Below are positions 8,778 to 48,770 of a stretch of DNA of 64,000 bases, one piece after another. How positions within the stretch are numbered: position 1 is the stretch's first letter; every line of letters starts with the position of its first letter. This stretch comes from Candidatus Forterrea multitransposorum CG_2015-17_Forterrea_25_41. Lineage in GTDB: Archaea > Iainarchaeota > Iainarchaeia > Iainarchaeales > CSSED10-239. Made by a program: the position numbers and the translations under genes. The stretch is from contig CP045477.1 in the NCBI GenBank assembly GCA_009392915.1, positions 448,001 through 512,000 on the forward strand, written 5' to 3'. The notes under the pieces are model-generated. The model did no database searches. It was not told the origin of the DNA and saw only the letters and a list, made by a program, of their open reading frames with translations.

Positions 8778-8803
8778 TATACAAGTAATTAAAGTGACGA
8801 TAC

Positions 8804-12481: not shown

Positions 12482-12500
12482 ATTTTAAAACCTTTTTTTC

Positions 12501-12836
12501 TTAATGTTTACAAGGAGTATTTAAATCTTTTAAATCAGCTATATTTTCAATTACTTCTTTTAAGAAATTATAATCTCCTGTTTTAAGAATAATATTTTTT
12601 TCTACAAATAAATCAATTGCTTTTTTACCCATACCTTTACTAAAAACTGTATCTATATTATTTTCTAAAATTTGATCTACTGGAGATTTAGAACTATTAT
12701 GATCTAAATAATTTTTAATAATTTTTAATTCTTTTAAAACTGTATCATATATTGCAAAAAAATTACAAGTTCCAAAATGATTGCTTAATTTTGAATCTAA
12801 ATTATTATTATCTTCTAATGAAATTAAAATTTTCAT
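12501..12836 (-). CDS. NifX/NifB-like (dinitrogenase FeMo-cofactor-binding fold) protein
   Basis: HFGTCNFFAIYD... and ...GMGKKAIDLF..KNI pattern typical of this family. I prefer the second ATG (MKILISL), which follows a GAGGAT SD. The ORF track starts at 12857. Confidence 0.7.
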   Translation of the reverse strand: MKILISLEDNNNLDSKLSNHFGTCNFFAIYDTVLKELKIIKNYLDHNSSKSPVDQILENNIDTVFSKGMGKKAIDLFVEKNIILKTGDYNFLKEVIENIADLKDLNTPCKH

Positions 12837-12923
12837 AAATAAATCCTCTAGTATCATTTAATATTTTTAAAATTAAATATTTAATGAATATATATAAATA
12901 TATAAAGAAAAGAAATAAAAGAA

Positions 12924-14774: not shown

Positions 14775-14856
14775 TGCAGGGTACAGGATTCGAACCTGTG
14801 AAGCACTAAGCAATGGATTTTGAGTCCATCCCCTTTGACCGCTCGGGAAACCCTGC
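14775..14856 (-). tRNA. tRNA-Leu (anticodon CAA), long variable arm, no encoded CCA
   Basis: Minus strand GCAGGGTTTCCCGAGCGGTCAAAGGGGATGGACTCAAAATCCATTGCTTAGTGCTTCACAGGTTCGAATCCTGTACCCTGCA. It has a 7-bp acceptor stem, anticodon loop CTCAAAA and T-loop GGTTCGAATCC. Confidence 0.9.
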
Positions 14857-16963: not shown

Positions 16964-17092
16964 TTTTTTTATTCACCTCGTAACTATAAGTTTAATTAAC
17001 TAATTATTATATAAAAAGATTTAAAAAGAGGAACAAATACTTAGGAAAAAACCTTAAAGAACATTTCTTTTAAAAAATAAAAAAGATTAAAG

Positions 17093-17175
17093 CGCAGAGG
17101 ACGGGATTCGAACCCGTGTAGTCGTGAGACTCTAGCTTAGCAGGCTAGCGCGTTTGACCACTCTGCCACCTCTGC
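17093..17175 (-). tRNA. tRNA-Ser (anticodon GCU), long variable arm, no encoded CCA
   Basis: Minus strand GCAGAGGTGGCAGAGTGGTCAAACGCGCTAGCCTGCTAAGCTAGAGTCTCACGACTACACGGGTTCGAATCCCGTCCTCTGCG. Anticodon loop is CTGCTAA. Confidence 0.9.
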
Positions 17176-17247: not shown

Positions 17248-18150
17248 TTATTTTTTAGAGAAAACCTTTCCTAAAAAAACCTTTTTATTAACACCATACC
17301 TTTTAACATCAATATACCCTTTACCTTCTAATTTTTTAAGGTTTCTTGAAACAGTACCTTTTGGTAAAAAACATTCTTTTGAAAGATTTTTTTGCAAAAT
17401 ACCATTCTTTTCTAAAACAATTTTAATTATTTTTTGCTCATTTTCATTAAGTCCTAAAAGAAGATCTTCAGCTTCTATTTTTTCTTTATTTGAAGAAATT
17501 AAAGATTTTTTCTTTTTTAAAATAAACTTAACTAAAACAAAAAATACAAAAAAAGAAATAAAAAATATCATAAAAAACAAAAACCAATTAAATGGTTTTT
17601 TATCAATCATAGAAGAAAAATGAATTGAATAATTAATATCAAAATAAGAAATTGGCTCATTATAAGTTACTAAAAACTTATTATCTTGTATAGTTACATT
17701 TCTATAATCTAGAGAAAGAGAAATTATTTCTGTTTTTTTAGGTAAAATTAAAGAAAAACTATCCACATATTCTTTAAAAATAGGTAAATAACTAACAGAC
17801 CAAACATTTCCATTCTTAAAAGAATAAACATCAGTTAAATAAATTATTTCAAGAGTTAAAGAATTATCTAAAATACAGCAATTATTTAGATTAATTGTTA
17901 AAGTATTAAATGAATAATTATAATTAATATCTTTATTTGTATTCTTTATCTTAAGATCATAAACAGGAATAATTGGAAGAACAATAGAATCTCCTTTTTT
18001 AATTTCTGTAAATAAAACTATATCGTTTACTTGTAAAATACCATTCTCATTAACAGTAATAGAAGTATCTATTTTTTCTATATTATATGCAAAAGAATTA
18101 ACAGAAAATAAAACAATTAATAATAATAATAAAAAATAATAATTTTTCAT
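17248..18150 (-). CDS. Membrane-anchored transcription regulator: signal peptide + extracytoplasmic beta-rich domain + TM + C-terminal winged-helix HTH
   Basis: N-terminal signal (YYFLLLLLIVLFSVNSFA), a ~170-aa non-hydrophobic domain, one TM (WFLFFMIFFISFFVFFVLVKFIL), then an ArsR/MarR-like wHTH (NENEQKIIKIVLEKNGILQKNLSKECFLPKGTVSRNLKKLEGKGYIDVKR). Confidence 0.7.
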   Translation of the reverse strand: MKNYYFLLLLLIVLFSVNSFAYNIEKIDTSITVNENGILQVNDIVLFTEIKKGDSIVLPIIPVYDLKIKNTNKDINYNYSFNTLTINLNNCCILDNSLTLEIIYLTDVYSFKNGNVWSVSYLPIFKEYVDSFSLILPKKTEIISLSLDYRNVTIQDNKFLVTYNEPISYFDINYSIHFSSMIDKKPFNWFLFFMIFFISFFVFFVLVKFILKKKKSLISSNKEKIEAEDLLLGLNENEQKIIKIVLEKNGILQKNLSKECFLPKGTVSRNLKKLEGKGYIDVKRYGVNKKVFLGKVFSKK

Positions 18151-18229: not shown

Positions 18230-19753
18230 CTATTCAGTTATCTCTACATCTTCAGAAGCATTTAAAGAAACATACTTTTCTCTATGTCCAAAAGGAATAA
18301 AACCAAATAACTTTCTTTGTTCTTTAACCTTTAAAACATATTCAAGTTTGCTATCTACAGAAACAAGTTCAACATTTCCAATAACATTTTCTGTTTTAAT
18401 ATTATTTTCAATTAAAACATTGTTAATTGGTTTTATTTTTCTAACCTTTTCTTGATTTGAAATATACATTTCAGTCATACTTTCATCTGTAAATACTTCA
18501 TAGTCTTCTAAAGTCTCAATTAAAACATCATCACCTTTTTCTTTTCTAAGGTCTTTTTTAGCTTCAGCATTTATTGAAACATTAGATATCTTTACTTGTT
18601 CTTGAACAATCATTCTATTTTGAAGTTTTTCTTGAGCTTTTTCTGAAAGTGTATCAATTGGAGCAAAAGCTACAACAAAATTTTCAGAAACTATTGTTTT
18701 GTAAAGAGGATCTTGACTATCAACTATTCTTCTATTAACTAAACTTACTTCAATAGAATATTTGTTATCTCTAAATTCTTTCCCAAATACTTTTTCAATT
18801 AAATCTAGATTATTTTTTATAGATACTTGATAATTATAAGTATATACTCTTCTCATTTCAGGTAATACACTATTTGCTTGATTTCTAGTAGCAACTGATG
18901 TATTTGCTGAAACTGATCCAGAACCAGAATTATTTACTTGATTTGAAGCAGAAACAGATGCTCTTACTCTTTCAATATTCTTAATAGATTCTAAATTTTG
19001 TGATGAAGAAACTTGAGTATAAACTTCAGCTTTCACAGTTGAAACATCAATTTCAGAAGATTCATTTACAGAAACACTTGAATCAATTCTTTCTGTTGGA
19101 ACTGTTATACCACCTTCACGATCTACCATTAAATAAACTACTTTATCTGATGTTGATATATCAACTAAAGGAGTCATTTTAAAAACTAAATTATATTCTT
19201 CTTTTAAAAGTTCTTTTGAAGAGATTACTCTTGCATGGATTTTTGAATTATTATAGATAAATCCAGAATTATCGTTTACAACAGGAGTAAATTTAACACT
19301 TAAACCTAATTTATTTTCAGTTACTGGAGGTTTAGGTTTTTCTATAAATTTTTCAATACCAACTTTACATTCTTGTTCAGTTTCAAAAGATCTGATATTG
19401 TTAACTCCACAACCACTTCCACATTCTACAAACTCACAAGAATATTCTATTTCAGATTCTTGATTATAATTTGTTTTAGAATCTTCTTCTTGAACATCTA
19501 CATTAGTATGAACTTCAGAAGATATTACCCACATAGGAATACAAACAGCAGGACAGATTTCATCAATATTTCCTTGAGAATTATCAATTGTATCTATATT
19601 AATATTTGCATTCATATTAAGATTAGGAGTATTATCATCAACTACAATCATTTCTGTTACATAATCTGCATTTATTGGAGGAACAGCTAAAATTCCTACA
19701 GCAAATATAAAAGCTAACAGAATAACTGAAATTATTTTTTTTATAACATTCAT
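18230..19753 (-). CDS. Secreted hypothetical protein with an N-terminal Cys-containing module
   Basis: AGGTGG SD and signal peptide (IISVILLAFIFAVGILAVPPINA). Cys cluster (CPAVCIP...CEFVECGSGCG...CK), then a Ser/Asn/Val-rich body. Confidence 0.6.
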   Translation of the reverse strand: MNVIKKIISVILLAFIFAVGILAVPPINADYVTEMIVVDDNTPNLNMNANINIDTIDNSQGNIDEICPAVCIPMWVISSEVHTNVDVQEEDSKTNYNQESEIEYSCEFVECGSGCGVNNIRSFETEQECKVGIEKFIEKPKPPVTENKLGLSVKFTPVVNDNSGFIYNNSKIHARVISSKELLKEEYNLVFKMTPLVDISTSDKVVYLMVDREGGITVPTERIDSSVSVNESSEIDVSTVKAEVYTQVSSSQNLESIKNIERVRASVSASNQVNNSGSGSVSANTSVATRNQANSVLPEMRRVYTYNYQVSIKNNLDLIEKVFGKEFRDNKYSIEVSLVNRRIVDSQDPLYKTIVSENFVVAFAPIDTLSEKAQEKLQNRMIVQEQVKISNVSINAEAKKDLRKEKGDDVLIETLEDYEVFTDESMTEMYISNQEKVRKIKPINNVLIENNIKTENVIGNVELVSVDSKLEYVLKVKEQRKLFGFIPFGHREKYVSLNASEDVEITE

Positions 19754-19985: not shown

Positions 19986-20057
19986 GCGCCCCAGGCGGGA
20001 GTCGAACCCGCCCCACAACCTTGACAGGGTCGTATCCTAACCGATAGACTACTGGGG
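19986..20057 (-). tRNA. tRNA-Asp (anticodon GUC), no encoded CCA
   Basis: Minus strand GCCCCAGTAGTCTATCGGTTAGGATACGACCCTGTCAAGGTTGTGGGGCGGGTTCGACTCCCGCCTGGGGCG. Anticodon loop is CTGTCAA. Confidence 0.9.
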
Positions 20058-20074
20058 CTTTTTGTTAAAGATTT

Positions 20075-20174: not shown

Positions 20175-20777
20175 TTATTTTATCTTTTTTAAAAAATACC
20201 AAAAAGCAATAAATAACACTACAAAACCAACTAAAAAAATCATTAAAACATTAAAATAATTTAAAACTGATTTTGAAATCTCTTCTCCAAGCTTATAACC
20301 AAGAATTGTTAAAAAAGAAACCCATAAAAAAGATCCTAAAAAAGTGTAAAAAATAAAATCTTTTAAAGGCATTTTTGAAAAACCAGCAGGAATAGAAATA
20401 TACTGTCTTACAACAGGTATTAACCTTCCAAAAAAAGTTGCTGATTTACCATATTTTTTAAAAAACAATTCTGCTTTTTCTAGATGAGAAATATTTATAA
20501 AGAATATTCTTTGGTGTCTTAAAAGATATCTCCTTCCTAAATAATAACCTATAGAATAATTTATTAATGCACCAAAAACAGAACCTAAAGTTCCTAAAAG
20601 AATTACAAGAAATATATTTAAATTACCTACATATGCAAAAGCACCTGCAGGAACCATTATGATCTCTGAAGGAAAAGGAATAAATGAACTTTCAATAGTC
20701 ATTAATAAAAACACCAATAAATGTCCAACAAATCCTGTTAAATAATCAGACAAAAATAAAATCATTTCTTCAAACAT
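20175..20777 (-). CDS. DedA family membrane protein
   Basis: 200 aa. Typical DedA N-terminal region (ESSFIPFPSEIIMVPAGAFA), ..GRLIPVVRQYISIPAG.., and 4-5 TM helices. Confidence 0.8.
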   Translation of the reverse strand: MFEEMILFLSDYLTGFVGHLLVFLLMTIESSFIPFPSEIIMVPAGAFAYVGNLNIFLVILLGTLGSVFGALINYSIGYYLGRRYLLRHQRIFFINISHLEKAELFFKKYGKSATFFGRLIPVVRQYISIPAGFSKMPLKDFIFYTFLGSFLWVSFLTILGYKLGEEISKSVLNYFNVLMIFLVGFVVLFIAFWYFLKKIK

Positions 20778-20805: not shown

Positions 20806-21510
20806 CTAAACTATATAACTAGATACAAAAAAGATTAAAAGACTTACTGGAAGTAAAAAACATAAATAAATCCAAACTTTCTTTGAATTACTATCAATCT
20901 GTGATAAATAAATTGAAGAAATTATAACATATTCAACTAAATATACAATTGCACAATAATAACTTACAATAAACAAACTAGAATTAGAAGTTAAACCAAC
21001 AACTGAAATATCAACAATTCCAGTTAAACTTTTAACCAAAGAAATTACAACCCCTAAAATCCCAGGAACAATAAAACCACCTGCAAAAAGAATAGTGTAT
21101 TTTTGCATTAAAAGAATTGAAGTTCTTTCATCAAACAATTCTCTTGATTTTAAAAAATCTTTAACTAAATTTTTATAATCTTTAGAAGTAACTGTTCCAG
21201 TAAAAACTGAATATTCTAAAAGATCTAAAAAATTTGAAAGAAAAGAAGAATTATATTTATTTTTTAAAATATTAAACACTTCTTTAGGGGTATGCCCTTT
21301 GTTTATTTTATTTAAAATTAATTTAAATTCAGAAGATATTAATTGATTACTGGAAGATGCAAGCTTTACTAAAATTACTTTTAGATCATTTGTTTTAACA
21401 AACCCAGAGATTCTTAAAACTTCATCAATTAAAGCATCTTCAAATTTCTTTCTCTTAATACTAAAAAAATAATCTCCAAATAAGTAATTTAAATACTTCA
21501 TTAATTTCAT
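20806..21510 (-). CDS. Type IV filament platform protein, TadC/FlaJ-half-like (locus A)
   Basis: Cytoplasmic helical T2SS-F-like domain followed by 3 TM helices. Sits directly downstream of a TadB-like gene and a secretion ATPase. Confidence 0.55.
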   Translation of the reverse strand: MKLMKYLNYLFGDYFFSIKRKKFEDALIDEVLRISGFVKTNDLKVILVKLASSSNQLISSEFKLILNKINKGHTPKEVFNILKNKYNSSFLSNFLDLLEYSVFTGTVTSKDYKNLVKDFLKSRELFDERTSILLMQKYTILFAGGFIVPGILGVVISLVKSLTGIVDISVVGLTSNSSLFIVSYYCAIVYLVEYVIISSIYLSQIDSNSKKVWIYLCFLLPVSLLIFFVSSYIV

Positions 21511-21533: not shown

Positions 21534-22280
21534 TTATGGAAGATTAGCTTTCATTGTTAGGAATATAAACATATCAATTATTGGAAATAAAATAACAATT
21601 ATAAAAATAACAGATAAAGGTGTAAAAGATAATTCTAAAAAATTACTACCAACTAATAAAAACATTAAAAACAAAGCAGGAACAATTGCAGAAACAACAA
21701 TATAGATTAAAGATAAAAGACTTAATTTAGTGGAATAATTTTTAATTAAATAATTTTGTTTTTCAATAATACTTGAAGATAATGTTCTTAAAGATTCAGA
21801 TTTATTTAAAGAACCAGTAGATAAAACATCTTCAATCTGATAAAAAACTCTCTTTAAATCTGAGTTTTCAACACCCACAGAAATAAAAGATTCAGAAAGA
21901 GAATAACCTAAGACATTTACTTTATATAAAACTTTTTTAATAATTTGCCCAATTAAAGAAGAATCAACTCTATTTTCTAAAGCAATTTTTAAAGAAATAT
22001 TCTTATCTAAATCATTTGCAAGGTTATTTAAGAAAAAAGGAATTTCTTTATTTATTTGTCTTTGATGATTTTGAAGCTTAATCTTGTATTTAAAAAAAAT
22101 AATAAAAAAGAACATAAAGAAAAACATAATAAATAAATTAAATAAATAACTATAAGATAAACTAATAACCACTGAATCAATTAATAAAAAAATAATTAAA
22201 ATTATTAAATAGAGAATAATAAATAACAAAAAGTTCTTTCTTGTAAATATTTCTTTCTTTAAAAAAATATAATCAATCAT
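21534..22280 (-). CDS. Type IV filament platform protein, TadB/FlaJ-half-like (locus A)
   Basis: N-terminal TMs, a T2SS-F-like helical domain (EIPFFLNNLANDLDKNISLKIALE...GYSLSESF), and C-terminal TMs. Its start overlaps the ATPase gene by 8 nt. Confidence 0.6.
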   Translation of the reverse strand: MIDYIFLKKEIFTRKNFLLFIILYLIILIIFLLIDSVVISLSYSYLFNLFIMFFFMFFFIIFFKYKIKLQNHQRQINKEIPFFLNNLANDLDKNISLKIALENRVDSSLIGQIIKKVLYKVNVLGYSLSESFISVGVENSDLKRVFYQIEDVLSTGSLNKSESLRTLSSSIIEKQNYLIKNYSTKLSLLSLIYIVVSAIVPALFLMFLLVGSNFLELSFTPLSVIFIIVILFPIIDMFIFLTMKANLP

Positions 22281-24036
22281 AATCTTTTCTAATTAATATT
22301 TCATCAATTATTTTTTCTTGTTTCTTATAAACTTTAAGATAATCTTTTTTATTTTTAATATCAAATGCAAATTTTAATTTATCATAGATTTTAATAGAAT
22401 CATTAACTTTAATTAATTTATTTTTATAAATATCAAAATAAAATAAAACATTTAAAGAAATTTTTCCATCTTTATATATAACTTCACAGATTTCAGTAAT
22501 ATTTCTTAAATCAATAGATTTACCTTTTAAATATTTATTATATCTTCTTTGAGTTATAATTAAATCAATTACACCTAAATCAGTTTCTAAAACACCATAT
22601 GACTTAAACCTTAATAGAGCTTCATTAGCACTTTGAGAATGGAAAGTTGTATATGTACCTTTTGCTTGACCACAAAGCATAGATTCAATTAAATATTTTG
22701 ATTCTTCTCTACTTCTAATTTCTCCAATAACAACTCTATCAGGTCTCATTCTTAAAGTGTTTATAACTAAACTTTCAAGATTAATTCCAATCTCAGGATT
22801 TACAAGTGTAAAAACTTTATGTTTATGAGGGATATTTATCTCTCTAACTTCTTCAACAACAACAAATCTTTCATCTAAAGGAACAAAAGAAAGTAAAGTG
22901 TTTAAAGTGGTTGTTTTTCCAGAACCAGTATTTCCAACAACAATTATATTTGAATCTGTTAAAAAACAAAGACTTAAAAAAACTAAAGCTTCTTTTGAAA
23001 CTGTATTAAAAGAGATTAAATCTTTAATTGTAAATGGTTTTTGAGAAAATTTTCTAATAGTAATACAAGCACTTTCAGTTATTGGGTTTATAACTGCATT
23101 AAGTCTTGAATTATCTTTAAGATAAGTATCTAAAATTGGATTTTTTAAAGTAATATATTTATTTGAGTGCCAAGAAAGTTTATTAATTAAATCCCTTATT
23201 ACTTGAGAAGAAGAATAAGAAAGATTACTTTCAAGCCAACCATAATATTTATGATAAACATAAAGTGATTTTCCTTCTCCAATAATTACAATTTCTTCAA
23301 GATAAGGATCTTTTAATATTTCTGTTAATGGTCCATAATTATAAAGATTATTAAAAGAAATATCTATAATATAATTAAATTGATCTTCTTCAAGCTCTAT
23401 GTTATTAACATAACAATAATCAATTAATTCTTTTTCAATATCTTCTTTTATTCTTTCAGTTGAAACTTTTTCAATATATTCTGTTCTAGTTTTATAAGAA
23501 TCTAAAATAAAGTTAATAACTTCAATTTCTTGGATTGAAAGATTTTGATGAAAAATTAAATATCTTTTAGAAGAATCTTTCATTTCAAATACATTTTTAG
23601 AAATATTTCTTAAGATTTCTTTTTTTAAATCTAAAACAACATAACCTAAATATCTATTAAGAATATATTTCTTTTCATCATCAGTAAACTCATCCATTAT
23701 CTTTAATAAAGCAGGATTATTTTTATAACAAAACATAGAAAAAGAACTTAAAGCACATAAATCACATTTATAAGCTTTATTTTTTCTTAAGATAATAGCA
23801 TTATGTGGACAAGCTTTAAGACACTCACCACACCCATCACATTTTTCAGAATCAATTGCTACAACGCCTTTAGAAACATAATAAATAGCATTTTTTTTAC
23901 AAGCTTTAATACAAGGAGCATCTTTACAATTGGTACAATTGAATACACAAGAAGAGTCTTTTTTTGTAAAATTGTAAGGACAATTTAGAAAAACATCTGT
24001 ATCTTTGATAAAATCTTCTGTTTTCTTAAGATACAT
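22273..24036 (-). CDS. FlaI/VirB11-type secretion ATPase with an N-terminal 2x[4Fe-4S] ferredoxin-like domain (locus A)
   Basis: Cys motifs CTNCKDAPCIKAC and CDGCGECLKACP (residues ~34-77). Intact Walker A VVGNTGSGKTTT (nt 22909-22938), Walker B-like RPDRVVIGEIRSREE, and His-box ..TTFHSQSA. Confidence 0.85.
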   Translation of the reverse strand: MYLKKTEDFIKDTDVFLNCPYNFTKKDSSCVFNCTNCKDAPCIKACKKNAIYYVSKGVVAIDSEKCDGCGECLKACPHNAIILRKNKAYKCDLCALSSFSMFCYKNNPALLKIMDEFTDDEKKYILNRYLGYVVLDLKKEILRNISKNVFEMKDSSKRYLIFHQNLSIQEIEVINFILDSYKTRTEYIEKVSTERIKEDIEKELIDYCYVNNIELEEDQFNYIIDISFNNLYNYGPLTEILKDPYLEEIVIIGEGKSLYVYHKYYGWLESNLSYSSSQVIRDLINKLSWHSNKYITLKNPILDTYLKDNSRLNAVINPITESACITIRKFSQKPFTIKDLISFNTVSKEALVFLSLCFLTDSNIIVVGNTGSGKTTTLNTLLSFVPLDERFVVVEEVREINIPHKHKVFTLVNPEIGINLESLVINTLRMRPDRVVIGEIRSREESKYLIESMLCGQAKGTYTTFHSQSANEALLRFKSYGVLETDLGVIDLIITQRRYNKYLKGKSIDLRNITEICEVIYKDGKISLNVLFYFDIYKNKLIKVNDSIKIYDKLKFAFDIKNKKDYLKVYKKQEKIIDEILIRKDYD

Positions 24037-33219: not shown

Positions 33220-33744
33220 TTAAGAAGATGGAAGTTCTACAGCACATTTTCTTAAATCAATTGTTTTTTTAGGACAAGTAGAGTTTGATAAAGTAAAAAC
33301 CTTTAAATCTAAAGGATCAATTATTTCTCCAGAATCAACATTAATATCAGAATTTACAATTGTAAAATCAGTTGTTGATTTTAATTTTTTAATTTCTCCA
33401 GATAAAATAGGATTATCAAAATTACCATACATTTTTAGAACATTTGAAGAATTTTGAGAAGTTCCTTGAATATTTAAAGAAAGATTATAAAAATCAATAG
33501 GGGTTGGGTTTCTTAATAAAACTTCAATATTTCCAGTAGTTGAATCAAGATTACAAGATTCTACAACTAAATTATACTTAATACAATCCATTCTAGAAAC
33601 TTCTTGTAATTGATCTTGTGAAACATCTAATTTTTCTCTAACAGATGTTTTTGACCAAGATAAAAATCCTGCAACTAAAACAGCTGTTACCAAGATTAAT
33701 AAAACTACAGAAATTATTGCCGAAATTGATTTTTTTCTATTCAT
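33220..33744 (-). CDS. Archaeal type IV pilin-like protein (class III signal peptide)
   Basis: N-terminus MNRKKSISAIISVVLLILVTAVLVAGFLSW fits the archaeal pilin N-terminal domain: basic residues, a small residue at -1, then a hydrophobic helix. It ends at a TAA in frame with the next ORF. Confidence 0.7.
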   Translation of the reverse strand: MNRKKSISAIISVVLLILVTAVLVAGFLSWSKTSVREKLDVSQDQLQEVSRMDCIKYNLVVESCNLDSTTGNIEVLLRNPTPIDFYNLSLNIQGTSQNSSNVLKMYGNFDNPILSGEIKKLKSTTDFTIVNSDINVDSGEIIDPLDLKVFTLSNSTCPKKTIDLRKCAVELPSS

Positions 33745-33830
33745 AAATATCTTTTTTAAAATATAATATAATTATAGATATTATAGAAACTATTTTAAAG
33801 GTATCTTTATTCTTTTAAAAAAATAAATAT

Positions 33831-34172
33831 TTAAAAAGAAATAATATCATTTATTTTTATAAAAGAAATATCTGTTTCAATTGGAAGTTCAATTATATAT
33901 TTAGCTTTCTTTTTTGGAGAATAAAAAGTAAAAGGTCTTAATCTTTTTTTAATATCAATAACTTTTTTATTTGAATCTAGAAAAAGAACATTTATTGAAT
34001 AGAAAACAAAAAGCATATGAATTGAAGAGCCTACAATAGATTCATATTCTCTTTTAAAAATAAGACCAAAATCAAATTTCTTTCTTGGAAAAAACATAAG
34101 TCCAAGTCCTTGTTTTAAAGGAGAAATTATTTTCTTTTTTTTAATTATTATTTTATTATTAACTTTTATCAA
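33831..34172 (-). CDS. DUF192 (COG1430) family protein
   Basis: GLGLMF...IHMLFVFYSINVLFLDSNKKVIDIKK...AKYIIELP follows the DUF192 GLM/...M...LD..F.d/...vLE pattern. Confidence 0.65.
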   Translation of the reverse strand: MIKVNNKIIIKKKKIISPLKQGLGLMFFPRKKFDFGLIFKREYESIVGSSIHMLFVFYSINVLFLDSNKKVIDIKKRLRPFTFYSPKKKAKYIIELPIETDISFIKINDIISF

Positions 34173-34178
34173 AAATAA

Positions 34179-35330
34179 TCACACTTTTTTTTTTAAACTT
34201 ACCCTATATAAAATAACAAAATCAATATCAGATTTTCTAATCTCAAAATCAAAAAATACAGCATCTGGTACAAAAATAGCATACTCTGCACAAGAAAGAC
34301 CACATTCACTTTGATCAAAAGGTAAAAAATATAGATTATTACTATATGTTTTATCTAGAATATATTTAGAACTAATAGATTTTAAAGCAATGACTTCAGA
34401 AATATTTACTTGTTCTAGCTGATTACGATTCATATAGGTAATAGTGTCAATTAAAACACTCTCAGCATCTGGTTTTGGAACAGCAATTTGAAAGATTAAA
34501 ATTGTAAATATAAAAAATATGAAAATATATTTGATAAAATTAAAACTACTTTCTTCTTTTATTGCAAACATTATAAAAGAAATAAAGATAGAAAGAACAA
34601 TTGCCATATAAAGAAGGAAATTATCAAAAAATATTCTTGTTATTAAATCTTGATCTGCATACCATAAAAAATTATTACCTAGTATAATATTTATGAATAA
34701 AATTACAACTAAAAAGATTACAAATAAAACAATGGATAAATAATATAAATTTAAAAAATATTTTTTCTTTTGTGTTTCTTCTTTAAAAATAGAAATATCT
34801 TTTGAAATATTTAAAAGAACTCTATCAAGAGGTATAGAACTTTCTTTAAAAGTCTTTAACAATATTAAAGTGTGAGTGATTATTGGACTTTTAATAGTCT
34901 CATTAATACCTGATAAAGCATTTTCAAAATCATCTCCCCAAGAAACTCTATTTGCTATTCTTTTTATTTCTGTATCAATTGAACCATAAACATTTGATGT
35001 TGTGATATTGTTTAATGATATTGATAAATTATTTGTAGATTTATACTCTCTCGATAAATCTTGTAAAAAGAATGTAAAAGAAGTTTCAATTGCTTTCTTT
35101 TTAAAGTGTTTTAAAACATATTCTAAAACAAAACCTAAAAAACTTACGAAAAAACCAAAAAAGAAAACTGCATAGTATAATTCAGTATGAAGAAAATATT
35201 TATTTGATAAATGAACAATTAAAAGACCAGATAAAATACTTGCAAGAATTAATATTTGGTATTCATAATTATAAATTAATAGTTTTAATTTAATATTCAT
35301 TTTATCTAAAAATTTATTTTTTTCTATCAT
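34179..35330 (-). CDS. Type IV filament platform protein, TadC/FlaJ-half-like with an extra C-terminal domain (locus B)
   Basis: N-terminal TMs, a T2SS-F-like helical domain (..IKRIANRVSWGDDFENALSGINETIKSP..), 3 TMs, then a ~90-aa extracytoplasmic tail. Confidence 0.6.
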   Translation of the reverse strand: MIEKNKFLDKMNIKLKLLIYNYEYQILILASILSGLLIVHLSNKYFLHTELYYAVFFFGFFVSFLGFVLEYVLKHFKKKAIETSFTFFLQDLSREYKSTNNLSISLNNITTSNVYGSIDTEIKRIANRVSWGDDFENALSGINETIKSPIITHTLILLKTFKESSIPLDRVLLNISKDISIFKEETQKKKYFLNLYYLSIVLFVIFLVVILFINIILGNNFLWYADQDLITRIFFDNFLLYMAIVLSIFISFIMFAIKEESSFNFIKYIFIFFIFTILIFQIAVPKPDAESVLIDTITYMNRNQLEQVNISEVIALKSISSKYILDKTYSNNLYFLPFDQSECGLSCAEYAIFVPDAVFFDFEIRKSDIDFVILYRVSLKKKV

Positions 35331-35346
35331 TTAAAAATCAATCTCT

Positions 35347-36189
35347 TCATTTATATAAAATCCCAATTAATACAAATTCAATTACTGCAAATATTATTGA
35401 AAAAATCAACAATGATTCTTTTAATAAAAAATAATCTGTAAAAGTTATAAAAAATATTATTAAAATAACAATAAAAAAGAAAAATAAAAATATTGACATT
35501 AAAAATAAAATATTAATTCTACTTTTCTTTTGTTCACTTAACTCTCTTTTAGATTGTTCTAAATTAGTTAAGAAATCAAGAATAACTTGATTTAAGTCTT
35601 CTTTTTGATCAATAACTTCAATTAATTTTCTAAAGAAGTTTTTTTCAACTTCAGAATATGTTTCAGAAATTATTGATTTAAAAGTATCTTTAAGATTATG
35701 ATTTCTTTTATTTAAAGCAATTATTTTCTTTGCTTCTCTGCTTAATATATCATTATTTTCTAAGTTTTCAAAAACATTCAATACATCTTTAATAGTTAGA
35801 TTTTCATCTCTTAAAACAGATAAATGTTTTATAGATCTTTGAAATTCACTACCAATTTCTTTTTTTATATTATTTAAAATAAAAAAAGGATATTTAAATA
35901 AAAGTAAAAAAATCATAAAAGCAAAAGTAAAAGAAATAAAAATAGTTATAAAAAAACTAAAAAGATTAAACAATATTCCAAGTCTAATCATTAAATAAAT
36001 AAAAGCAAACTCTATAACTATTAAAAAAAATATAGAAATAAAAGAAATATTTGAAATATAACTAATAGAATCTTCATTGATACCAGTATATTCTAAAACT
36101 CTATCAAAATTTTTAAAAGTACCTTTAAATTGCATAACAATATCTTTTAAGAAAAATAAAGATATACTTGTTAAGAATTTACTAAACAT
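35347..36189 (-). CDS. Type IV filament platform protein, TadB/FlaJ-half-like (locus B)
   Basis: TMs flank a helical cytoplasmic domain (..IKHLSVLRDENLTIKDVLNVFENL..). The gap to the upstream ATPase-like gene is 7 nt. Confidence 0.6.
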   Translation of the reverse strand: MFSKFLTSISLFFLKDIVMQFKGTFKNFDRVLEYTGINEDSISYISNISFISIFFLIVIEFAFIYLMIRLGILFNLFSFFITIFISFTFAFMIFLLLFKYPFFILNNIKKEIGSEFQRSIKHLSVLRDENLTIKDVLNVFENLENNDILSREAKKIIALNKRNHNLKDTFKSIISETYSEVEKNFFRKLIEVIDQKEDLNQVILDFLTNLEQSKRELSEQKKSRINILFLMSIFLFFFFIVILIIFFITFTDYFLLKESLLIFSIIFAVIEFVLIGILYK

Positions 36190-36196
36190 ATTTTTT

Positions 36197-39100
36197 TCAC
36201 TTTATATCGAGTCTTTTAAACAACTCGTCCTTTTCATAATTATATTGAGAGATAATACTATTAAAATCTTTGTAATTGTATACTTTTGAATCCTTCATCC
36301 ATCTCATAAGTTTCTTTTTCTTTAAAAAATCAACAACATTTATTGAAGAAGATAAAAGATTAATATTGTATTTATTTTCGGATATTTCTAAATCTACAAC
36401 TACACTTTCATTTTTATTAATTATTTCTTTAATATTTACAATTTGATAAGTTTCTTTAAAACCTTGTTTAATTCTTTTAATTTCTATTAGAATAGATTTT
36501 TGATTAACCATTTTTAATTGTTCAATAAATTTATCAGCAACATTTGGTTTTATTGAAAAGATATTTAAGTTATACCAAGAAACATCAAAAATATCTTCTC
36601 CAAACTCATCAATTGCAATAATATCTGGTTTCTGAGAAATTGTTTGTTCAATAATTAAACGTTTACTTAAATCTGCATTATTTGTAAAAATTCTATTAAT
36701 CCATTCTTTTTGAGGAAGTTTAAATCTATCGTATGCCTGAACAGTTATAATTTTCTGATCAGGATAAAATAAAAGTATAGAATTATAAATTACAAAAGAA
36801 TCATCAACATCATGTAAAATAACTTTATAGTTTTCTGAAATTGCAGACCAGATATATGAAAATACATCTACAGAACCAATAGATGTATTAACTAAAGCAA
36901 CAGGTGTTAATGGTTCATCAAGATATTTTTTAATTACAAAAGAAGAACCTTTACTACTAGTATCTCCTAAAGAATAAAGACCTTCAACTTTATAACCATT
37001 AGGTAAATATCCATCAATCACAGGATGTTCTGGAGTTATATAGATACCCATATTTTTAGTTAAAATAGTTACAAAGTTATTTAACTCAATAATATCTTTA
37101 AAACTAATATTTGTTTTTAAAACACCATACTCTACATGGTAAACTATAAGATTTGATTTTTCACCAGAACAACTAACTTCAATTATTTTTTTATCAAGTA
37201 AAAGATTAGTTAAAATACCTAACCCAAAAAATTCTCTTTGAATAAATTTAAGATAAAGTTTTTGTTGTAATTTACCTAAACTATAAGATAATTTTTCAAC
37301 AGAAATATCAAATATTTTTTGAATATATTTATCAAGACTATGTTTATCTCCATTAAAAGAATAATAGTTTTTATCGATTGTATTAAAAAATACTTTTTTT
37401 AATTGAATATATTCTTTTTCTTGTTCACTATTAAGTTCTGGTTGTACTAAATTATAGAAAAGACCTTTAGTATTATCATAATGTATTGTAACATATGTAA
37501 AATCATCTATAGAATATTTATCAAAAATATTTTTTATATTTTCTTCAAATGAAGCAATAGGATCTTGATACACTAAAGAAGAAAATAGAGAATTGTCAGA
37601 AGATAATTTTTCTTGATATATTTCTTTATTTATTTTAACAGGATTTTTTCCAGCATCTTTTGGAAGGATATAATCCATACCTTTTTCTCTTAAGTCTTTA
37701 AATTTTTCTGCAATTAAATCATTTTTAACTTTCGGAGTTAATTTTACTTCTTTGATAATTTTAATTTCTTGTTCTTTTGGTAATGATTCTTTTTTAATTG
37801 TTTTAGATATTTTTTCATCATCATTATCTTCATCAGAATAATTCTCTTTTGAAGTAACTTTTTCTTCTCTTATAGAAGGAGAAATATATTTTTTATTTTT
37901 GTTTGAAATTTTAGATTTATCTTTTTTATTTTTAGGAGAAGAAATTTCTCTCATACCTTTATATATTCTTTCATCATCTTCTTTAGATAAATCAACATCA
38001 GAAAATACTTTTTTAACATCTTCTTCATCTTTATCTATTTTCTCATTTAAAACATTAACATCAAATTTTTCTTTTTCTTTTTCTTCTAAAGTTTTTGATT
38101 TTTTTAATTTAGAAATATTATTTTCAATTTCAGAATTTAATTTTACTTGATTATTATCAATTACAAAATTTGGTGTTTTTTCAGAAGATTCATTTGTTTT
38201 AATTTCAGAAGATAAAGAAGAATCTTCATTTAAAACTTTTAAATCATTTTTTGAATCTTTATCATATACAGAAAACTTATCTTCAACAGTGTTAGATAAA
38301 TCTTTAACATCATCTTCAATTGCAAAAATATCTGGAACTTCAATTTCTTCAAATAAACCATTAGCCTCACCTAAAGAAGAATTATTTAAATGAGAACTAG
38401 AATTTTTAGAATCTATTTCTAAATTACCTGTGTTTTTAGGAAAATCATTTGAATTTGCTAAAGTTTCTTTATTTTGAGAATCTTTATTTTTATTTACAGA
38501 TAAATGATCTATTTTTGAATATAAATTTTTAACATCATACTTTGGAAAATCAATTTTACTTTTTTTAGGTTTATCATCTAAAAAAGAAAATGATTCTAAA
38601 TAAACTTCTTGATCAAGTTTACTTGCTTTTTTATTTAATTGATCTAATAAATCATCTACATTTTCATTTTTTGATTTTACTTCTGAAAAAATATCATTTG
38701 ATTCTTTACTTTCAGAATATTCTTTTGGTTTAGATACATTTTCTAAAATATCTTTCAAAAGAGACATGGTTTTTTTATTATTATTTGATTCATCAAAATT
38801 TATTTCTTTTTTAATTGAATTATCAATATGATCTATTTTAGGCTCACTTATTAAAAATGAATTTGAAGGTTTTATTTTTTTTTCAGAAGATGAATCCGAA
38901 AGTAGTAGTTCATGAGATGAATCAGGGAGTAATAATTCATTATTAATTTTTGATGAAATTAATTTATTAGATGTTGATTTTTTATCAACTTTATCTAAAG
39001 GAACTTCTTTTTTAAAAATATTAGAATTATCAACCTTATCTAAAGGAACTTCTTTTTTAGAAATATTAGAATTATCAACTTTATCTAAAGGAACTTCTTT

Positions 39101-39547
39101 TTTAGAAATATTAGAATTATCAACTTTATCTAAAGGAACTTCTTTTTTAGAAATATTAGAATTATCAACTTTATCTAAAGGAACTTCTTTTTTAGAAATA
39201 TCTAAATTATCAACTTTATCTAAAAGAATCTTTTTTTTTCTAAAAGGATTAAAATCTTTATATTTTTCTTCAATATCAGAAGTGTCAACTTTTAAGTTTA
39301 CTTTCTTAACATCATTATAATTTTTATTTAAAGAAAAATCATCTTTTTTAGTTTCTGGTAAAACTACATCAAATTTTTGTAATTTTTTAGAATTACTATT
39401 ATTTTTTAAAGAACTATCAATTTTATCTTCTTTTAAAGAACTATCAAATTTATTATTTTTTACAGAATCTGAAGCTTTAGATATAGATTTAGATAGAGGA
39501 ATTCTTTTAATAACCTTAAAACCAGAAAAATTATCCTCTCCACCCAT
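36197..39547 (-). CDS. FlaI/ArlI-like secretion-ATPase homologue without a Walker A P-loop, fused to a ~700-aa low-complexity repeat-bearing N-terminus
   Basis: The C-terminal ~400 aa align collinearly with the locus A ATPase and the FlaI pattern (GLGILTNLLLDKKIIEVSCSG...VYHVEYGVLKTNISF...SSFVIKKYLDEPLTPV...). GxxGSGKT is replaced by ILHDVDDSFVI (nt 36788-36814). A Walker-B-like PDIIAIDEFGED is retained. Confidence 0.8.
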   Translation of the reverse strand: MGGEDNFSGFKVIKRIPLSKSISKASDSVKNNKFDSSLKEDKIDSSLKNNSNSKKLQKFDVVLPETKKDDFSLNKNYNDVKKVNLKVDTSDIEEKYKDFNPFRKKKILLDKVDNLDISKKEVPLDKVDNSNISKKEVPLDKVDNSNISKKEVPLDKVDNSNISKKEVPLDKVDNSNIFKKEVPLDKVDKKSTSNKLISSKINNELLLPDSSHELLLSDSSSEKKIKPSNSFLISEPKIDHIDNSIKKEINFDESNNNKKTMSLLKDILENVSKPKEYSESKESNDIFSEVKSKNENVDDLLDQLNKKASKLDQEVYLESFSFLDDKPKKSKIDFPKYDVKNLYSKIDHLSVNKNKDSQNKETLANSNDFPKNTGNLEIDSKNSSSHLNNSSLGEANGLFEEIEVPDIFAIEDDVKDLSNTVEDKFSVYDKDSKNDLKVLNEDSSLSSEIKTNESSEKTPNFVIDNNQVKLNSEIENNISKLKKSKTLEEKEKEKFDVNVLNEKIDKDEEDVKKVFSDVDLSKEDDERIYKGMREISSPKNKKDKSKISNKNKKYISPSIREEKVTSKENYSDEDNDDEKISKTIKKESLPKEQEIKIIKEVKLTPKVKNDLIAEKFKDLREKGMDYILPKDAGKNPVKINKEIYQEKLSSDNSLFSSLVYQDPIASFEENIKNIFDKYSIDDFTYVTIHYDNTKGLFYNLVQPELNSEQEKEYIQLKKVFFNTIDKNYYSFNGDKHSLDKYIQKIFDISVEKLSYSLGKLQQKLYLKFIQREFFGLGILTNLLLDKKIIEVSCSGEKSNLIVYHVEYGVLKTNISFKDIIELNNFVTILTKNMGIYITPEHPVIDGYLPNGYKVEGLYSLGDTSSKGSSFVIKKYLDEPLTPVALVNTSIGSVDVFSYIWSAISENYKVILHDVDDSFVIYNSILLFYPDQKIITVQAYDRFKLPQKEWINRIFTNNADLSKRLIIEQTISQKPDIIAIDEFGEDIFDVSWYNLNIFSIKPNVADKFIEQLKMVNQKSILIEIKRIKQGFKETYQIVNIKEIINKNESVVVDLEISENKYNINLLSSSINVVDFLKKKKLMRWMKDSKVYNYKDFNSIISQYNYEKDELFKRLDIK
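38986..39228 (-). repeat. Near-perfect 45-bp tandem repeat (~5.4 copies) inside the ATPase-like gene
   Basis: Unit caactttatctaaaggaacttcttttttagaaatattagaattat starts at 38986, 39031, 39076, 39121 and 39166, with a partial copy at 39211. It encodes (DNSNISKKEVPLDKV)n in frame. Confidence 0.92.
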
Positions 39548-39630
39548 AAATATGCCTTCTTTAAAATATATTTTAATATATAGATATTAGTTCATTAGAT
39601 TTATAAATCTTTAGATATTTTTTAATAGCT

Positions 39631-40362
39631 TCAAATAACAAAAGAAATAATTTTTGGAATAATTTCAAAAACATATAAAAGAATTAGAAAGATATAACTT
39701 ACTAGGATTAATATAATAAATGGAATTAAAGGAGAAAACCACACCTTAGAAATATTATGATTTTTAGCAATAACTTTAATTTTTTTAATTTCATTTTCTG
39801 GTTCAATATTTGGCATAAAAACAATTTTTGAAATTAATTTATTATTTTCTACATACAATTTTTCTAAAGGAGTATAAAAATTATTTACTTTTTTTAAAGA
39901 TAAAGGAACCCCTAAAAACATTAGATATAATGATTTAAAAAAATTATATTTAGGAAAATTTCTTGAAAATAAATTATATAAAAATAAGAAAACAGGTATA
40001 AGTAAAGTTAAAACTAAAGCAAAAAAGAAAATAAACATTGGAAAATATATATCAAAAATATTTGTAAATGATATTGCAAAAATAGTATAAAGATCCCCTT
40101 CTCCTATATATGTAAAATAACTAATCTTTCCTAAAACATAAAAAATTAATAAAAATATAAAACTTACAGCAAGTTGTATTAAATAACCTTTCCATAAAAT
40201 AAAATCTGTTTTAAAAACAAAAATACCTAAATAAAGAATACTAAAGATGGCTAAGAAAAATAAAGACATTATATTTATTTCTCTATACTTAATATCTTGA
40301 TAAGTTACATACAATAAAATAATTATAGAAAAAATAATTATTGGTAAATAAATATAATCCAT
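39631..40362 (-). CDS. Archaeal prepilin/preflagellin peptidase (A24 family, FlaK/PibD/EppA-like)
   Basis: Polytopic membrane protein with two catalytic-Asp contexts at canonical spacing: YQDIKYREI (Asp23) and YIGEGDLY (GxGD, Asp~89). Confidence 0.8.
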   Translation of the reverse strand: MDYIYLPIIIFSIIILLYVTYQDIKYREINIMSLFFLAIFSILYLGIFVFKTDFILWKGYLIQLAVSFIFLLIFYVLGKISYFTYIGEGDLYTIFAISFTNIFDIYFPMFIFFFALVLTLLIPVFLFLYNLFSRNFPKYNFFKSLYLMFLGVPLSLKKVNNFYTPLEKLYVENNKLISKIVFMPNIEPENEIKKIKVIAKNHNISKVWFSPLIPFIILILVSYIFLILLYVFEIIPKIISFVI

Positions 40363-48589: not shown

Positions 48590-48770
48590 ATTTATTTTCT
48601 CCTATATTCTTTAAATTTAAAATAAAAAAAGTTGTTATTAAAGTTATAATATTTTAAACAATATACATAAGATGTAATACAAACAGTGTATAAAGTGGCT
48701 TATTTTAAGAAAACAAACAAAAATTAGAAAATAATAAAATATTTAATATAAATTGTAAAATAAATTAAAG

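What the first reader, a model, noticed from the sequence alone, without database searches (positions are those of the whole stretch)
22273..24036. Secretion/pilus ATPase fused to an N-terminal 2x[4Fe-4S] ferredoxin-like domain
The first ~105 residues contain 13 Cys, including CTNCKDAPCIKAC and the canonical CDGCGECLKACP (nt ~23728-23982), a dicluster ferredoxin signature. A complete FlaI/VirB11-type ATPase follows, with intact Walker A, Walker B and His box. I am not aware of a described Fe-S domain on type IV filament ATPases. It would suggest redox or oxygen control of filament assembly, or a purely structural Cys-metal module.
Basis: partly seen in the sequence, partly recalled or inferred. 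Interest (0 to 1): 0.6.

Follow-up and report, generated by a model that had tools for sequence, protein, structure and literature searches.

The report
Iron-sulfur module on archaeal pilus motor
A tiny symbiotic-type archaeon (DPANN group) encodes a pilus-assembly motor ATPase with a built-in chain of three predicted iron-sulfur clusters at its front end. This design is common in these archaea but I found no description of it, and it hints that pilus building is tied to the cell's redox or iron-sulfur state.

Summary

The module is a HycB/DmsB-type four-cluster ferredoxin that has lost one cluster, so 12 of the 13 Cys form three complete ligand sets.

Across ~190 homologues the Cys count is quantised at 16, 12 or 8. 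Ligands disappear only as whole cluster sets that span distant motifs, which is strong evolutionary evidence for real Fe-S binding.

The fusion is present in some 200 protein clusters. All named ones are DPANN archaea (Iainarchaeota, Micrarchaeota). It always sits in an operon with two TadC-like platform genes. Split (two-gene) and Fer4-less variants exist, so the module is accessory.

I found no paper describing it. A 2026 survey states that no ATPase fusions are known.

Function is unknown. The best guess is a redox/Fe-S-dependent regulatory or docking module on a type IV pilus motor. I class it as a new variant of a known kind.

The parts
22273..24036 (-). Whole gene: 587-aa Fe-S-module-plus-secretion-ATPase fusion (stop codon 22273-22275)
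   Evidence: ORF list and sequence. Pfam Fer4 families plus T2SSE. AlphaFold model with pLDDT 92 and pTM 0.79.
23692..24036 (-). Residues 1-115: HycB/PsrB-type polyferredoxin module with three predicted [4Fe-4S] clusters
23980..23982 (-). C19, in 'NCP': the only survivor of motif I (its 4th Cys); predicted 4th ligand of the cluster held by C91/C94/C103
   Evidence: C19 is invariant in 59 homologues. Ligand logic follows the alignment to NarH 1q16_B and the co-loss pattern.
23899..23937 (-). Motif II, CTNCKDAPCIKAC (C34, C37, C42, C46)
23806..23841 (-). Motif III, CDGCGECLKACP (C66, C69, C72, C76)
23728..23766 (-). Motif IV without its 4th Cys, CDLCALSSFSMFC (C91, C94, C103)
   Evidence: The 4th Cys of motif IV is present only in relatives that also keep motif I Cys 1-3.
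23167..23691 (-). [quoted passage not shown]
   Evidence: Secondary structure of the model. Alignment to afGspE 2oap residues 55-450. Invariant G131.
22537..23166 (-). Residues 291-500: RecA-like catalytic domain with Walker A (nt 22909-22935), Asp box (22837-22863), Walker B (22714-22752) and His box (22630-22656)
   Evidence: T2SSE hit on residues 294-498. Invariant motif residues. Foldseek to 2oap, 4ii7 and 8rjf. Coordinates.
22276..22536 (-). Residues 501-587: C-terminal beta-sheet and helical tail
   Evidence: Model. This is the least conserved region.
21534..22280 (-). TadC/FlaJ-like half-size platform protein 1 (248 aa); its start overlaps the ATPase stop by 8 nt
   Evidence: Weak T2SSF hit. 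Two T2SSF genes follow the ATPase in every related locus examined.
20806..21510 (-). TadC/FlaJ-like half-size platform protein 2 (234 aa)
   Evidence: T2SSF at 30.1 bits, above the 25.2 cut-off. Conserved synteny.
20175..20777 (-). DedA/VTT-domain membrane protein, probably the last gene of the operon (tRNA-Asp follows at 19986-20058)
   Evidence: VTT_dom at 83 bits. Conserved after the two TadC genes in close relatives L001 and L085. tRNA.
33220..40362 (-). Probable partner type IV pilus locus: A24 prepilin peptidase, pseudo-ATPase, two T2SSF genes, DUF192 and a pilin-like gene. In distant relatives this locus lies directly upstream of the Fe-S ATPase operon.
   Evidence: Pfam. Pseudo-ATPase analysis. 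Synteny in L084, L086 and L088.

Best explanation
The gene encodes the motor ATPase of a type IV pilus-like (Tad/FlaI-like) assembly machine of a DPANN archaeon (Iainarchaeota). An accessory HycB/DmsB-type iron-sulfur module is fused to its N-terminus.

Supported by computation: residues 1-115 adopt the fold of four-cluster ferredoxin subunits. They keep three complete Cys4 ligand sets, equivalent to FS2, FS3 and FS4 of NarH/DmsB. The FS1 set has been lost as a unit. Residues ~128-587 are a catalytically intact secretion ATPase. The gene is co-transcribed with two half-size TadC platform proteins.

Inferred: the protein forms a hexamer docked on the TadC pair and uses ATP to drive pilin assembly. 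The pilins and the prepilin peptidase are encoded about 10 kb away. Each subunit carries three [4Fe-4S] clusters. The module is not part of the motor chemistry, because orthologues exist without it or with it as a separate upstream gene. Instead it serves as a regulatory or docking add-on that makes motor assembly or activity depend on intact, possibly reduced, clusters. This would couple pilus production to anoxia, redox state or iron-sulfur supply, by analogy with Fe-S domains on other NTPases such as ABCE1.
For: Fe-S identity:
- Pfam Fer4 families score above their cut-offs.
- There are sequence hits to solved HycB-like, PsrB and FdnH chains.

Evolutionary signature:
- In 192 N-termini the FS2 and FS4 ligand sets are complete in about 99-100%.
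- FS1 is complete in 105, wholly absent in 77 and partial in 10.
- FS3 is complete in 181 (162 canonical, plus 19 scored three-of-four, most or all being CxC-spaced variants or alignment offsets) or absent in 11.
- The lost ligands were replaced by substitution, not deletion.

ATPase:
- T2SSE scores 122 bits and the motifs are invariant.
- Foldseek matches 2oap, 4ii7 and 8rjf with target TM about 0.7.

Operon:
- ATPase followed by two T2SSF genes in every locus examined; for the second fused clade only the first gene after the ATPase has a T2SSF hit.

The module is accessory and a separable partner:
- L086 and L088 carry a conserved split into a 125-aa Fer4 gene plus a 422-425-aa ATPase gene, with the same AAAATGA stop/start overlap.
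- L089 and L090 are Fer4-less orthologous operons that keep the GW linker.

Purifying selection:
- The module is as conserved as the ATPase N-terminal domain, 0.54 against 0.50 identity within the clade.

Pilus link:
- The prepilin peptidase/pilin locus is in the window and is adjacent in relatives.
- A second fused clade sits in a locus with small pilin-sized ORFs.

Precedent:
- The Fe-S protein AapX is required for Aap pilus assembly in Sulfolobus, and its function is unknown (PMC11178785).
Against: - No biochemical data exist, so cluster binding is inferred from sequence, fold and ligand co-evolution only.
- Redox sensors usually need one cluster, so a three- to four-cluster chain looks more like an electron wire.
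- No redox partner gene is conserved next to the operon in the window's clade.
- The co-loss pattern reflects only two evolutionary events, not about 90 independent ones.
- The operon itself encodes no pilin, so a role other than pilus assembly (secretion, DNA transfer) is not excluded.
Confidence: 0.5

Rival explanations
1. Electron-transfer role. The module is a working electron wire, as in HycB/DmsB subunits. It connects a cytoplasmic donor (reduced ferredoxin, or a flavin reductase-like protein) to an acceptor at the pilus base, or it recruits a redox enzyme to the motor. The clusters would then turn over electrons rather than merely report redox state.
For: All closest structural relatives are electron-transfer subunits with chains of four clusters. 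Most family members keep all 16 ligands. A Flavin_Reduct (PF01613) gene lies two to three genes downstream of the operon in three four-cluster loci, L082, L084 and L086. The split form behaves like a separate ferredoxin subunit.
Against: The window's clade has lost FS1. A nested clade (P0018/P0021) has also lost FS3, leaving FS2 and FS4. In NarH-type proteins these are non-adjacent members of the chain, so a through-wire would be broken (cluster order from published NarH/DmsB structures). No Flavin_Reduct or other redox gene flanks the operon in the window, L001 or L085. Fer4-less orthologues exist. DPANN archaea of these groups generally lack electron-transport chains (PMC8561730).
Confidence: 0.15
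2. Purely structural metal module. The clusters are constitutive and only stabilise a compact N-terminal domain. That domain serves as a spacer or docking surface for the TadC pair or for lineage-specific accessory proteins, with no redox or oxygen signalling.
For: Archaeal pilus ATPases commonly carry variable, subsystem-specific N-terminal domains, proposed to be interaction surfaces (bioRxiv 10.64898/2026.04.22.720090). Cys-rich N-terminal domains have been noted in subclade 4F and arCOG05558 ATPases (PMC4858521). The P0021 clade keeps the domain length with only two clusters, which suggests the scaffold matters more than the chain.
Against: Fe-S clusters are costly and oxygen-labile for a mere scaffold. 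Cluster ligand sets are otherwise kept complete with very high fidelity. Any structural dependence on labile clusters would make the domain oxygen- and iron-responsive in practice, so this rival merges with the main explanation.
Confidence: 0.25
3. Not Fe-S at all. The Cys-rich region is a zinc-ribbon or disulfide-stabilised domain, as was suggested for other archaeal secretion ATPases, or the fusion is an assembly or gene-calling artefact.
For: Makarova et al. read the N-terminal Cys-rich domains of other archaeal ATPases as disulfide-forming. Bacterial GspE/PilB proteins bind zinc through a tetracysteine motif (general knowledge).
Confidence: 0.03

Closest known systems
Archaeal secretion ATPases afGspE (PDB 2OAP) and FlaI/ArlI (PDB 4II7)
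   Same: Same two-domain architecture (N-terminal domain plus RecA-like C-terminal domain) and the same Walker A, Asp box, Walker B and His box motifs. Sequence E-values are 9e-45 and 7e-37. Foldseek target TM is about 0.70-0.72.
   Different: Neither has an Fe-S domain. About 115 extra N-terminal residues are present here. The NCBIfam FlaI score is 175 against a cut-off of 550. No archaellum accessory genes are nearby. The partner platform is split into two half-size TadC proteins.
Four-cluster ferredoxin subunits of oxidoreductases (HycB, PsrB/NrfC, FdnH, DmsB, NarH; Pfam Fer4_11)
   Different: Here the module is fused to, or in some relatives encoded beside, a motor ATPase rather than a molybdo-/tungsto-pterin or hydrogenase catalytic subunit. 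In the window's clade the FS1-equivalent cluster, which faces the catalytic subunit in those enzymes, is missing.
AapX of the Sulfolobus Aap adhesion pilus (arCOG07320)
   Same: An Fe-S protein genetically tied to an archaeal type IV pilus machine. Its deletion abolishes pilus assembly and its function is unknown (PMC11178785; bioRxiv 2026).
   Different: AapX is a separate protein, not fused to the ATPase, and is found in Sulfolobales, Thaumarchaeota and others. Homology to this module was not tested because no sequence was available to me. The 2026 survey reports Aap-like systems in DPANN that lack aapX.
ABCE1/Rli1 (ABC ATPase with an N-terminal 2x[4Fe-4S] domain)
   Same: An NTPase motor with an N-terminal ferredoxin-like Fe-S domain that is essential but is not used for bulk electron transfer (general knowledge; analogy only).
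   Different: Different ATPase superfamily, different Fe-S domain subtype, two clusters instead of three or four, and a universal rather than lineage-specific distribution.
Cys-rich N-terminal domains of subclade 4F and arCOG05558 archaeal pilus ATPases (Makarova, Koonin and Albers 2016)
   Same: An extra N-terminal Cys-rich domain on an archaeal type IV pilus ATPase.
   Different: Those were interpreted as disulfide-forming and occur in Methanomicrobia, Halobacteria and Thermoproteales. Whether they are related to this Fer4 module was not tested.

Membership tests
Type II/IV secretion system ATPase superfamily (Pfam PF00437 T2SSE) | Profile match above the curated cut-off | tested here: met
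   122.4 bits against a cut-off of 24.9, on residues 294-498.
Type II/IV secretion system ATPase superfamily (Pfam PF00437 T2SSE) | Walker A, Asp box, Walker B and His box intact | tested here: met
   GNTGSGKTT, VVVEEVREI, RPDRVVIGEIR and TFHSQS are present. K374, T375, E395, E399, D433, E439, R441 and H466 are invariant in 59 homologues.
Type II/IV secretion system ATPase superfamily (Pfam PF00437 T2SSE) | Two-domain fold (N-terminal plus C-terminal domain) like solved members | tested here: met
   Foldseek gives 2oap at E 1e-33 with target TM 0.70-0.71, and 4ii7 with target TM 0.71-0.72.
Type II/IV secretion system ATPase superfamily (Pfam PF00437 T2SSE) | Hexameric ATPase activity coupled to a TadC/FlaJ/PilC platform | not testable with these tools
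   Only the conserved operon with two T2SSF genes is seen.
Archaellum motor ATPase FlaI/ArlI (NCBIfam NF058587) | Equivalog score at or above 550 bits | tested here: not met
   175.2 bits.
Archaellum motor ATPase FlaI/ArlI (NCBIfam NF058587) | Archaellum accessory genes (arlF/G/H, arlX or arlCDE, archaellins) in the locus | tested here: not met
   The neighbours are two T2SSF genes, DedA, PRPP synthase and a PCC-domain protein.
VirB11 / TrbB conjugation ATPases (TIGR02788, TIGR02782) | Equivalog score above the cut-off | tested here: not met
   137.7 bits against 249.95, and 116 bits against 304.55.
TadA/CpaF Flp-pilus ATPases (TIGR03819) | Score above the cut-off | tested here: not met
   146.8 bits against 373.15. 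The protein resembles CpaF structurally (8rjf) but is not an orthologue.
HycB/DmsB-type four-cluster ferredoxin (Pfam PF13247 Fer4_11) | Profile match above the cut-off | tested here: met
   30.8 bits against a cut-off of 26.2, on residues 33-95.
HycB/DmsB-type four-cluster ferredoxin (Pfam PF13247 Fer4_11) | Four Cys motifs (16 Cys) ligating four clusters | tested here: not met
   The window protein keeps 12 canonical Cys, lacking motif I Cys 1-3 and motif IV Cys 4. Relatives at 35-45% identity keep all 16. It is therefore a three-cluster derivative.
HycB/DmsB-type four-cluster ferredoxin (Pfam PF13247 Fer4_11) | Fold of solved members | tested here: met
HycB/DmsB-type four-cluster ferredoxin (Pfam PF13247 Fer4_11) | Actual binding of [4Fe-4S] clusters | not testable with these tools
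   Inferred from ligand conservation and cluster-wise co-loss.
Zinc-binding tetracysteine site of bacterial GspE/PilB, or a zinc-ribbon N-terminus | Paired CxxC...CxxC knuckles (in the C-terminal domain for GspE/PilB) | tested here: not met
   The Cys outside the module (208, 324, 357, 455, 517) are isolated. The N-terminal Cys follow ferredoxin spacing and fold.
AapX-type Fe-S accessory protein of Aap pili (arCOG07320) | Sequence homology to AapX | not tested
This is a functional parallel only.

The most novel reading that the evidence does not exclude
The iron-sulfur chain makes this a redox-gated pilus motor. Electrons from the fermentative ferredoxin pool, or from a flavin reductase-like partner, would set the oxidation state of 18 clusters per hexamer (24 in the four-cluster relatives). 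That state would switch the single ATPase between active and inactive modes, or even between extension and retraction, since archaea lack PilT. An ultra-small symbiont could then deploy or withdraw its host-attachment pili according to its own, or its host's, redox and energy state. In this genome the motor may also serve the neighbouring pilus locus, whose own ATPase has lost its P-loop.
Probability: 0.1. Interest if true: 0.85.

Novelty: new variant of a known kind. Interest (0 to 1): 0.55.

Why it matters
Type IV filament motors are among the best-studied prokaryotic machines, yet I found no description of one carrying iron-sulfur clusters. The latest archaeal survey states that ATPase fusions are unknown. 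Here a three- to four-cluster ferredoxin is a conserved part of the motor across two DPANN phyla, which depend on pili for host contact. If the clusters are real, pilus assembly in these organisms is linked to redox state, oxygen or iron-sulfur supply. That would be a new regulatory principle for this machine family. It may also bear on the unexplained requirement for the Fe-S protein AapX in Sulfolobus pilus assembly. The natural series of four-, three- and two-cluster, split and module-less variants provides ready-made constructs for experiments.

Tried and rejected
1. Genome-collection scan with the family alignment.
2. The AFDB50 fold search for named full-length look-alikes was unavailable.
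3. Zinc-ribbon, disulfide and mis-joined-ORF readings were rejected (see rivals).
4. Membership in FlaI, VirB11, TadA or BasE was rejected on NCBIfam cut-offs.
5. I tested whether the fused family reaches Methanomicrobia (Makarova's subclade 4F) by searching with the most divergent fused protein, P0312. Its clade contains only unnamed metagenome proteins and a Ca. Burarchaeum (Micrarchaeia) relative, so no link was established.
6. Literature searches for a description of the fusion found none.
7. A neighbour-joining tree of the catalytic core was too poorly resolved to count gains and losses of the module. It shows only that fused and module-less forms are intermixed within one clade.
8. Inter-domain contacts and cluster-to-cluster distances could not be measured, because model coordinates are not exposed.
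Full report
**Observation**

Window 22273-24036 on the minus strand is a single uninterrupted ORF of 587 codons. The first 105 residues hold 13 cysteines and the remaining 482 residues hold five. Cys makes up 0.58% of 38 other ORFs in this 24% G+C window, so the enrichment has a binomial P of about 7e-14.

Pfam places Fer4_6, Fer4, Fer4_11, Fer4_9 and Fer4_7 on residues 33-95, all above their gathering scores. It places T2SSE on residues 294-498 at 122 bits. Walker A, Asp box, Walker B and His box are present, and their key residues are invariant in an alignment of 59 homologues.

The window is archaeal, since it carries an archaeal SRP RNA at 8512-8783. The gene's 90% cluster is labelled 'archaeon' and 'Candidatus ainarchaeum sp.', meaning Iainarchaeota in the DPANN kingdom Nanobdellati. 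A 98% identical copy with identical neighbours lies on an independent 160-kb contig.

**What the N-terminal module is**

Alignment with more distant homologues shows it is a derivative of the four-motif, 16-Cys polyferredoxin found as the electron-transfer subunit of HycB, PsrB/NrfC, FdnH, DmsB and NarH enzymes. Relatives at 35-45% identity read as follows:
- Motif I: CxxCxxCxxxCP
- Motif II: CxxCx4CxxxC
- Motif III: CxxCxxCxxxCP
- Motif IV: CxxCx(3-8)CxxxC

The window protein keeps:
- only the last Cys of motif I (C19, in 'NCP');
- all of motif II (C34, C37, C42, C46);
- all of motif III (C66, C69, C72, C76);
- the first three Cys of motif IV (C91, C94, C103).

In solved members of this family, the first three Cys of a motif bind one cluster and the fourth binds the neighbouring one. 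In NarH numbering this gives FS1 = I(1-3)+IV(4), FS2 = IV(1-3)+I(4), FS3 = II(1-3)+III(4) and FS4 = III(1-3)+II(4). This comes from published NarH/DmsB structures. The register is confirmed by the HMMER alignment of residues 34-94 to NarH 184-247.

On that scheme the window protein has lost exactly the four ligands of FS1 and keeps complete sets for FS2, FS3 and FS4. C30 is not conserved.

**Evolutionary evidence that the clusters are real**

In the first 120 homologues the number of N-terminal Cys is quantised at 16, 12 or 8, plus occasional extras. In 192 aligned N-termini:
- the FS2 ligand set is complete in 188 and the FS4 set in 191;
- FS1 is complete in 105, wholly absent in 77 and partial in 10;
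- FS3 is complete in 181 or wholly absent in 11. The 181 comprise 162 with canonical spacing and 19 scored three-of-four; the ones inspected are CxC-spaced variants or small alignment offsets.

The lost ligands were substituted, not deleted, because the segment lengths are preserved.

These patterns stem from only two loss events. One is at the base of the window's clade. The second is in the nested P0018/P0021 clade. The evidence is therefore two events, each removing precisely one cross-motif ligand set. If four of the available Cys were lost at random, the chances would be about 4/1820 and 3/495. The fidelity with which all other sets are then maintained adds to this. It is hard to explain unless the cysteines work in the cluster-wise groups known from solved relatives.

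The module as a whole is as conserved as the ATPase's own N-terminal domain.

**The ATPase and its operon**

The full-length model has pLDDT 92 and pTM 0.79. Its best structural matches are afGspE (2OAP), FlaI (4II7/4IHQ) and CpaF (8RJF), with target TM about 0.7. Sequence searches give the same order.

NCBIfam scores are far below the equivalog cut-offs of FlaI, TadA, VirB11, TrbB and BasE. No archaellum genes are nearby. The protein therefore works like these ATPases but is an orthologue of none.

The stop codon overlaps the start of a 248-aa T2SSF-like gene. A 234-aa T2SSF gene, a DedA/VTT gene and then tRNA-Asp follow. The arrangement of ATPase followed by two half-size platform genes is kept in every related locus examined; in the second fused clade only the first of the two downstream genes has a T2SSF hit. 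It matches published descriptions of DPANN/methanogen-type pilus systems with two platform genes.

**Distribution and variants**

Two database searches returned about 200 distinct 90% clusters with Fer4 plus T2SSE domains. Every named one comes from Iainarchaeota/Diapherotrites, Micrarchaeota or an unclassified archaeon. JGI's pipeline already labels some 'Flp pilus assembly CpaF family ATPase/ferredoxin'.

An exhaustive profile search of 1.84 billion representatives, using the N-terminal 280 positions, found 49 proteins at E of 1e-30 or better. About 30 of these are full-length fusions.

A second, more divergent fused clade of 715-803 aa exists. It includes a relative from Ca. Burarchaeum (Micrarchaeia) and sits upstream of several small pilin-sized ORFs.

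Three further variants are informative:
1. **Split genes.** In L086 and L088 the module is a separate 125-aa gene. Its stop overlaps the start of a 422-425-aa ATPase gene at the same AAAATGA junction. This is an inherited gene split, not an assembly error.
2. **Module-less operons.** In L089 and L090 the same operon lacks the module, and the ATPase starts a few residues before the conserved GW linker.
3. **Cluster-number series.** Members carry four, three or two clusters.

The module is therefore a separable accessory partner of the motor, not part of its catalytic core.

**Literature**

Full-text searches found no description of a ferredoxin or Fe-S domain on a type IV filament ATPase.
- Makarova, Koonin and Albers (2016) noted 'cysteine-rich' N-terminal domains in subclade 4F and arCOG05558 ATPases and attributed them to disulfides. 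DPANN archaea were not covered.
- A 2026 preprint surveying archaeal type IV filament systems reports variable N-terminal domains. [quoted passage not shown]
- The nearest functional precedent is AapX. [quoted passage not shown] Its role is unknown.

**Mechanism**

*Supported by computation:*
- an intact motor ATPase;
- a three-cluster HycB-type module with complete ligand sets;
- an operon with two platform genes;
- the accessory and separable nature of the module.

*Inferred:*
- The protein forms a hexamer on the TadC pair.
- It drives assembly of pilins that are processed by the A24 peptidase encoded about 16 kb away.
- The module makes motor assembly or activity depend on intact, possibly reduced, clusters. 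This would link piliation to anoxia, redox state or iron-sulfur supply.

I give this regulatory/docking reading about 0.5.

A true electron-transfer role gets about 0.15. The wire-like relatives and a Flavin_Reduct gene conserved near four-cluster loci favour it. Three things weaken it. The P0021 clade retains only the non-adjacent FS2 and FS4. The window's clade has no nearby partner gene. Module-less orthologues exist.

A purely structural role gets about 0.25, but it shades into the main explanation, because any fold that depends on labile clusters is oxygen- and iron-sensitive in practice. A non-Fe-S reading is essentially excluded.

**Verdict**

The feature is a widespread DPANN variant of a well-known machine that has been auto-annotated but, as far as I could find, never described. 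I class it as a new variant of a known kind. Interest is moderate to good for specialists (0.55). It is real, conserved and experimentally tractable, but its function is unknown and it is not categorically new.

Noticed in passing
window 36197-39547 (-): A 1116-aa protein with no Pfam hit. Its C-terminal ~440 residues are homologous to secretion ATPases (28% identity, E 1e-38, to the 653-aa T2SSE of L084), but the Walker A P-loop is gone (GGTATGKTS becomes HD--VDDSF). It is a pseudo-ATPase. Its N-terminal ~680 residues are low-complexity and include tandem 'KKEVPLDKVDNSNIS' repeats (about aa 118-185). Within this window the Fe-S ATPase is therefore the only catalytically intact pilus-type ATPase.
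   Followed up: partly
window 33220-40362 (-): A canonical type IV pilus locus. It comprises an A24 prepilin peptidase (39631-40362), the pseudo-ATPase, two T2SSF genes (35347-36189 and 34179-35330), DUF192 (33831-34172) and a pilin-like ORF with a class III signal-peptide-like N-terminus, MNRKKSISAIISVVLLIL (33220-33744). A PKD-domain protein follows (31291-33081). In distant relatives (L084, L086, L088) the equivalent locus, ending in DUF192, lies immediately upstream of the Fe-S ATPase operon.
   Followed up: partly
L086 3642-5278 and L088 2627-4269: In two Micrarchaeota/Iainarchaeota-type MAGs the Fe-S module is a separate 125-aa gene. Its stop overlaps the ATPase start at an identical AAAATGA junction, which marks a conserved gene split. 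Stand-alone 125-131-aa modules also appear among the database representatives (P0265, P0281, P0282).
   Followed up: yes
L082 10737-12059, L084 10194-11906, L086 6785-8104: In the four-cluster loci L082, L084 and L086 the ATPase-TadC-TadC operon is followed by a PAC2-family gene and a Flavin_Reduct (PF01613) gene. PAC2 also follows in L083, L089 and L090. The flavin reductase-like protein is a candidate redox partner. Neither gene is near the operon in the window.
   Followed up: no
window 17248-18150 (-) and 18230-19753 (-): Two genes lie downstream of the operon and are conserved in the 98% relative L001. One is a 300-aa protein with an N-terminal signal/TM segment, a further TM segment and a C-terminal winged-helix (HTH_24/MarR/TrmB) domain. 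The other is a 507-aa secreted protein with no Pfam match. A membrane-anchored transcription regulator next to a pilus operon may be worth a look.
   Followed up: no
window 12182-12857 (-): A gene pair: DUF134 (a sigma-70 region 4-like HTH, 99 aa) and a Nitro_FeMo-Co family protein (118 aa). This pairing is typical of anaerobes and may relate to metallocluster handling.
   Followed up: no
window 8512-8783 (-); 14775-14856, 17092-17175, 19986-20058, 48770-48845 (-): An archaeal SRP RNA (118 bits) and four tRNAs (Leu-CAA, Ser-GCT, Asp-GTC, Arg-CCT). The 75-aa ORF at 8511-8738 on the plus strand is a spurious ORF lying over the SRP RNA gene.
   Followed up: yes
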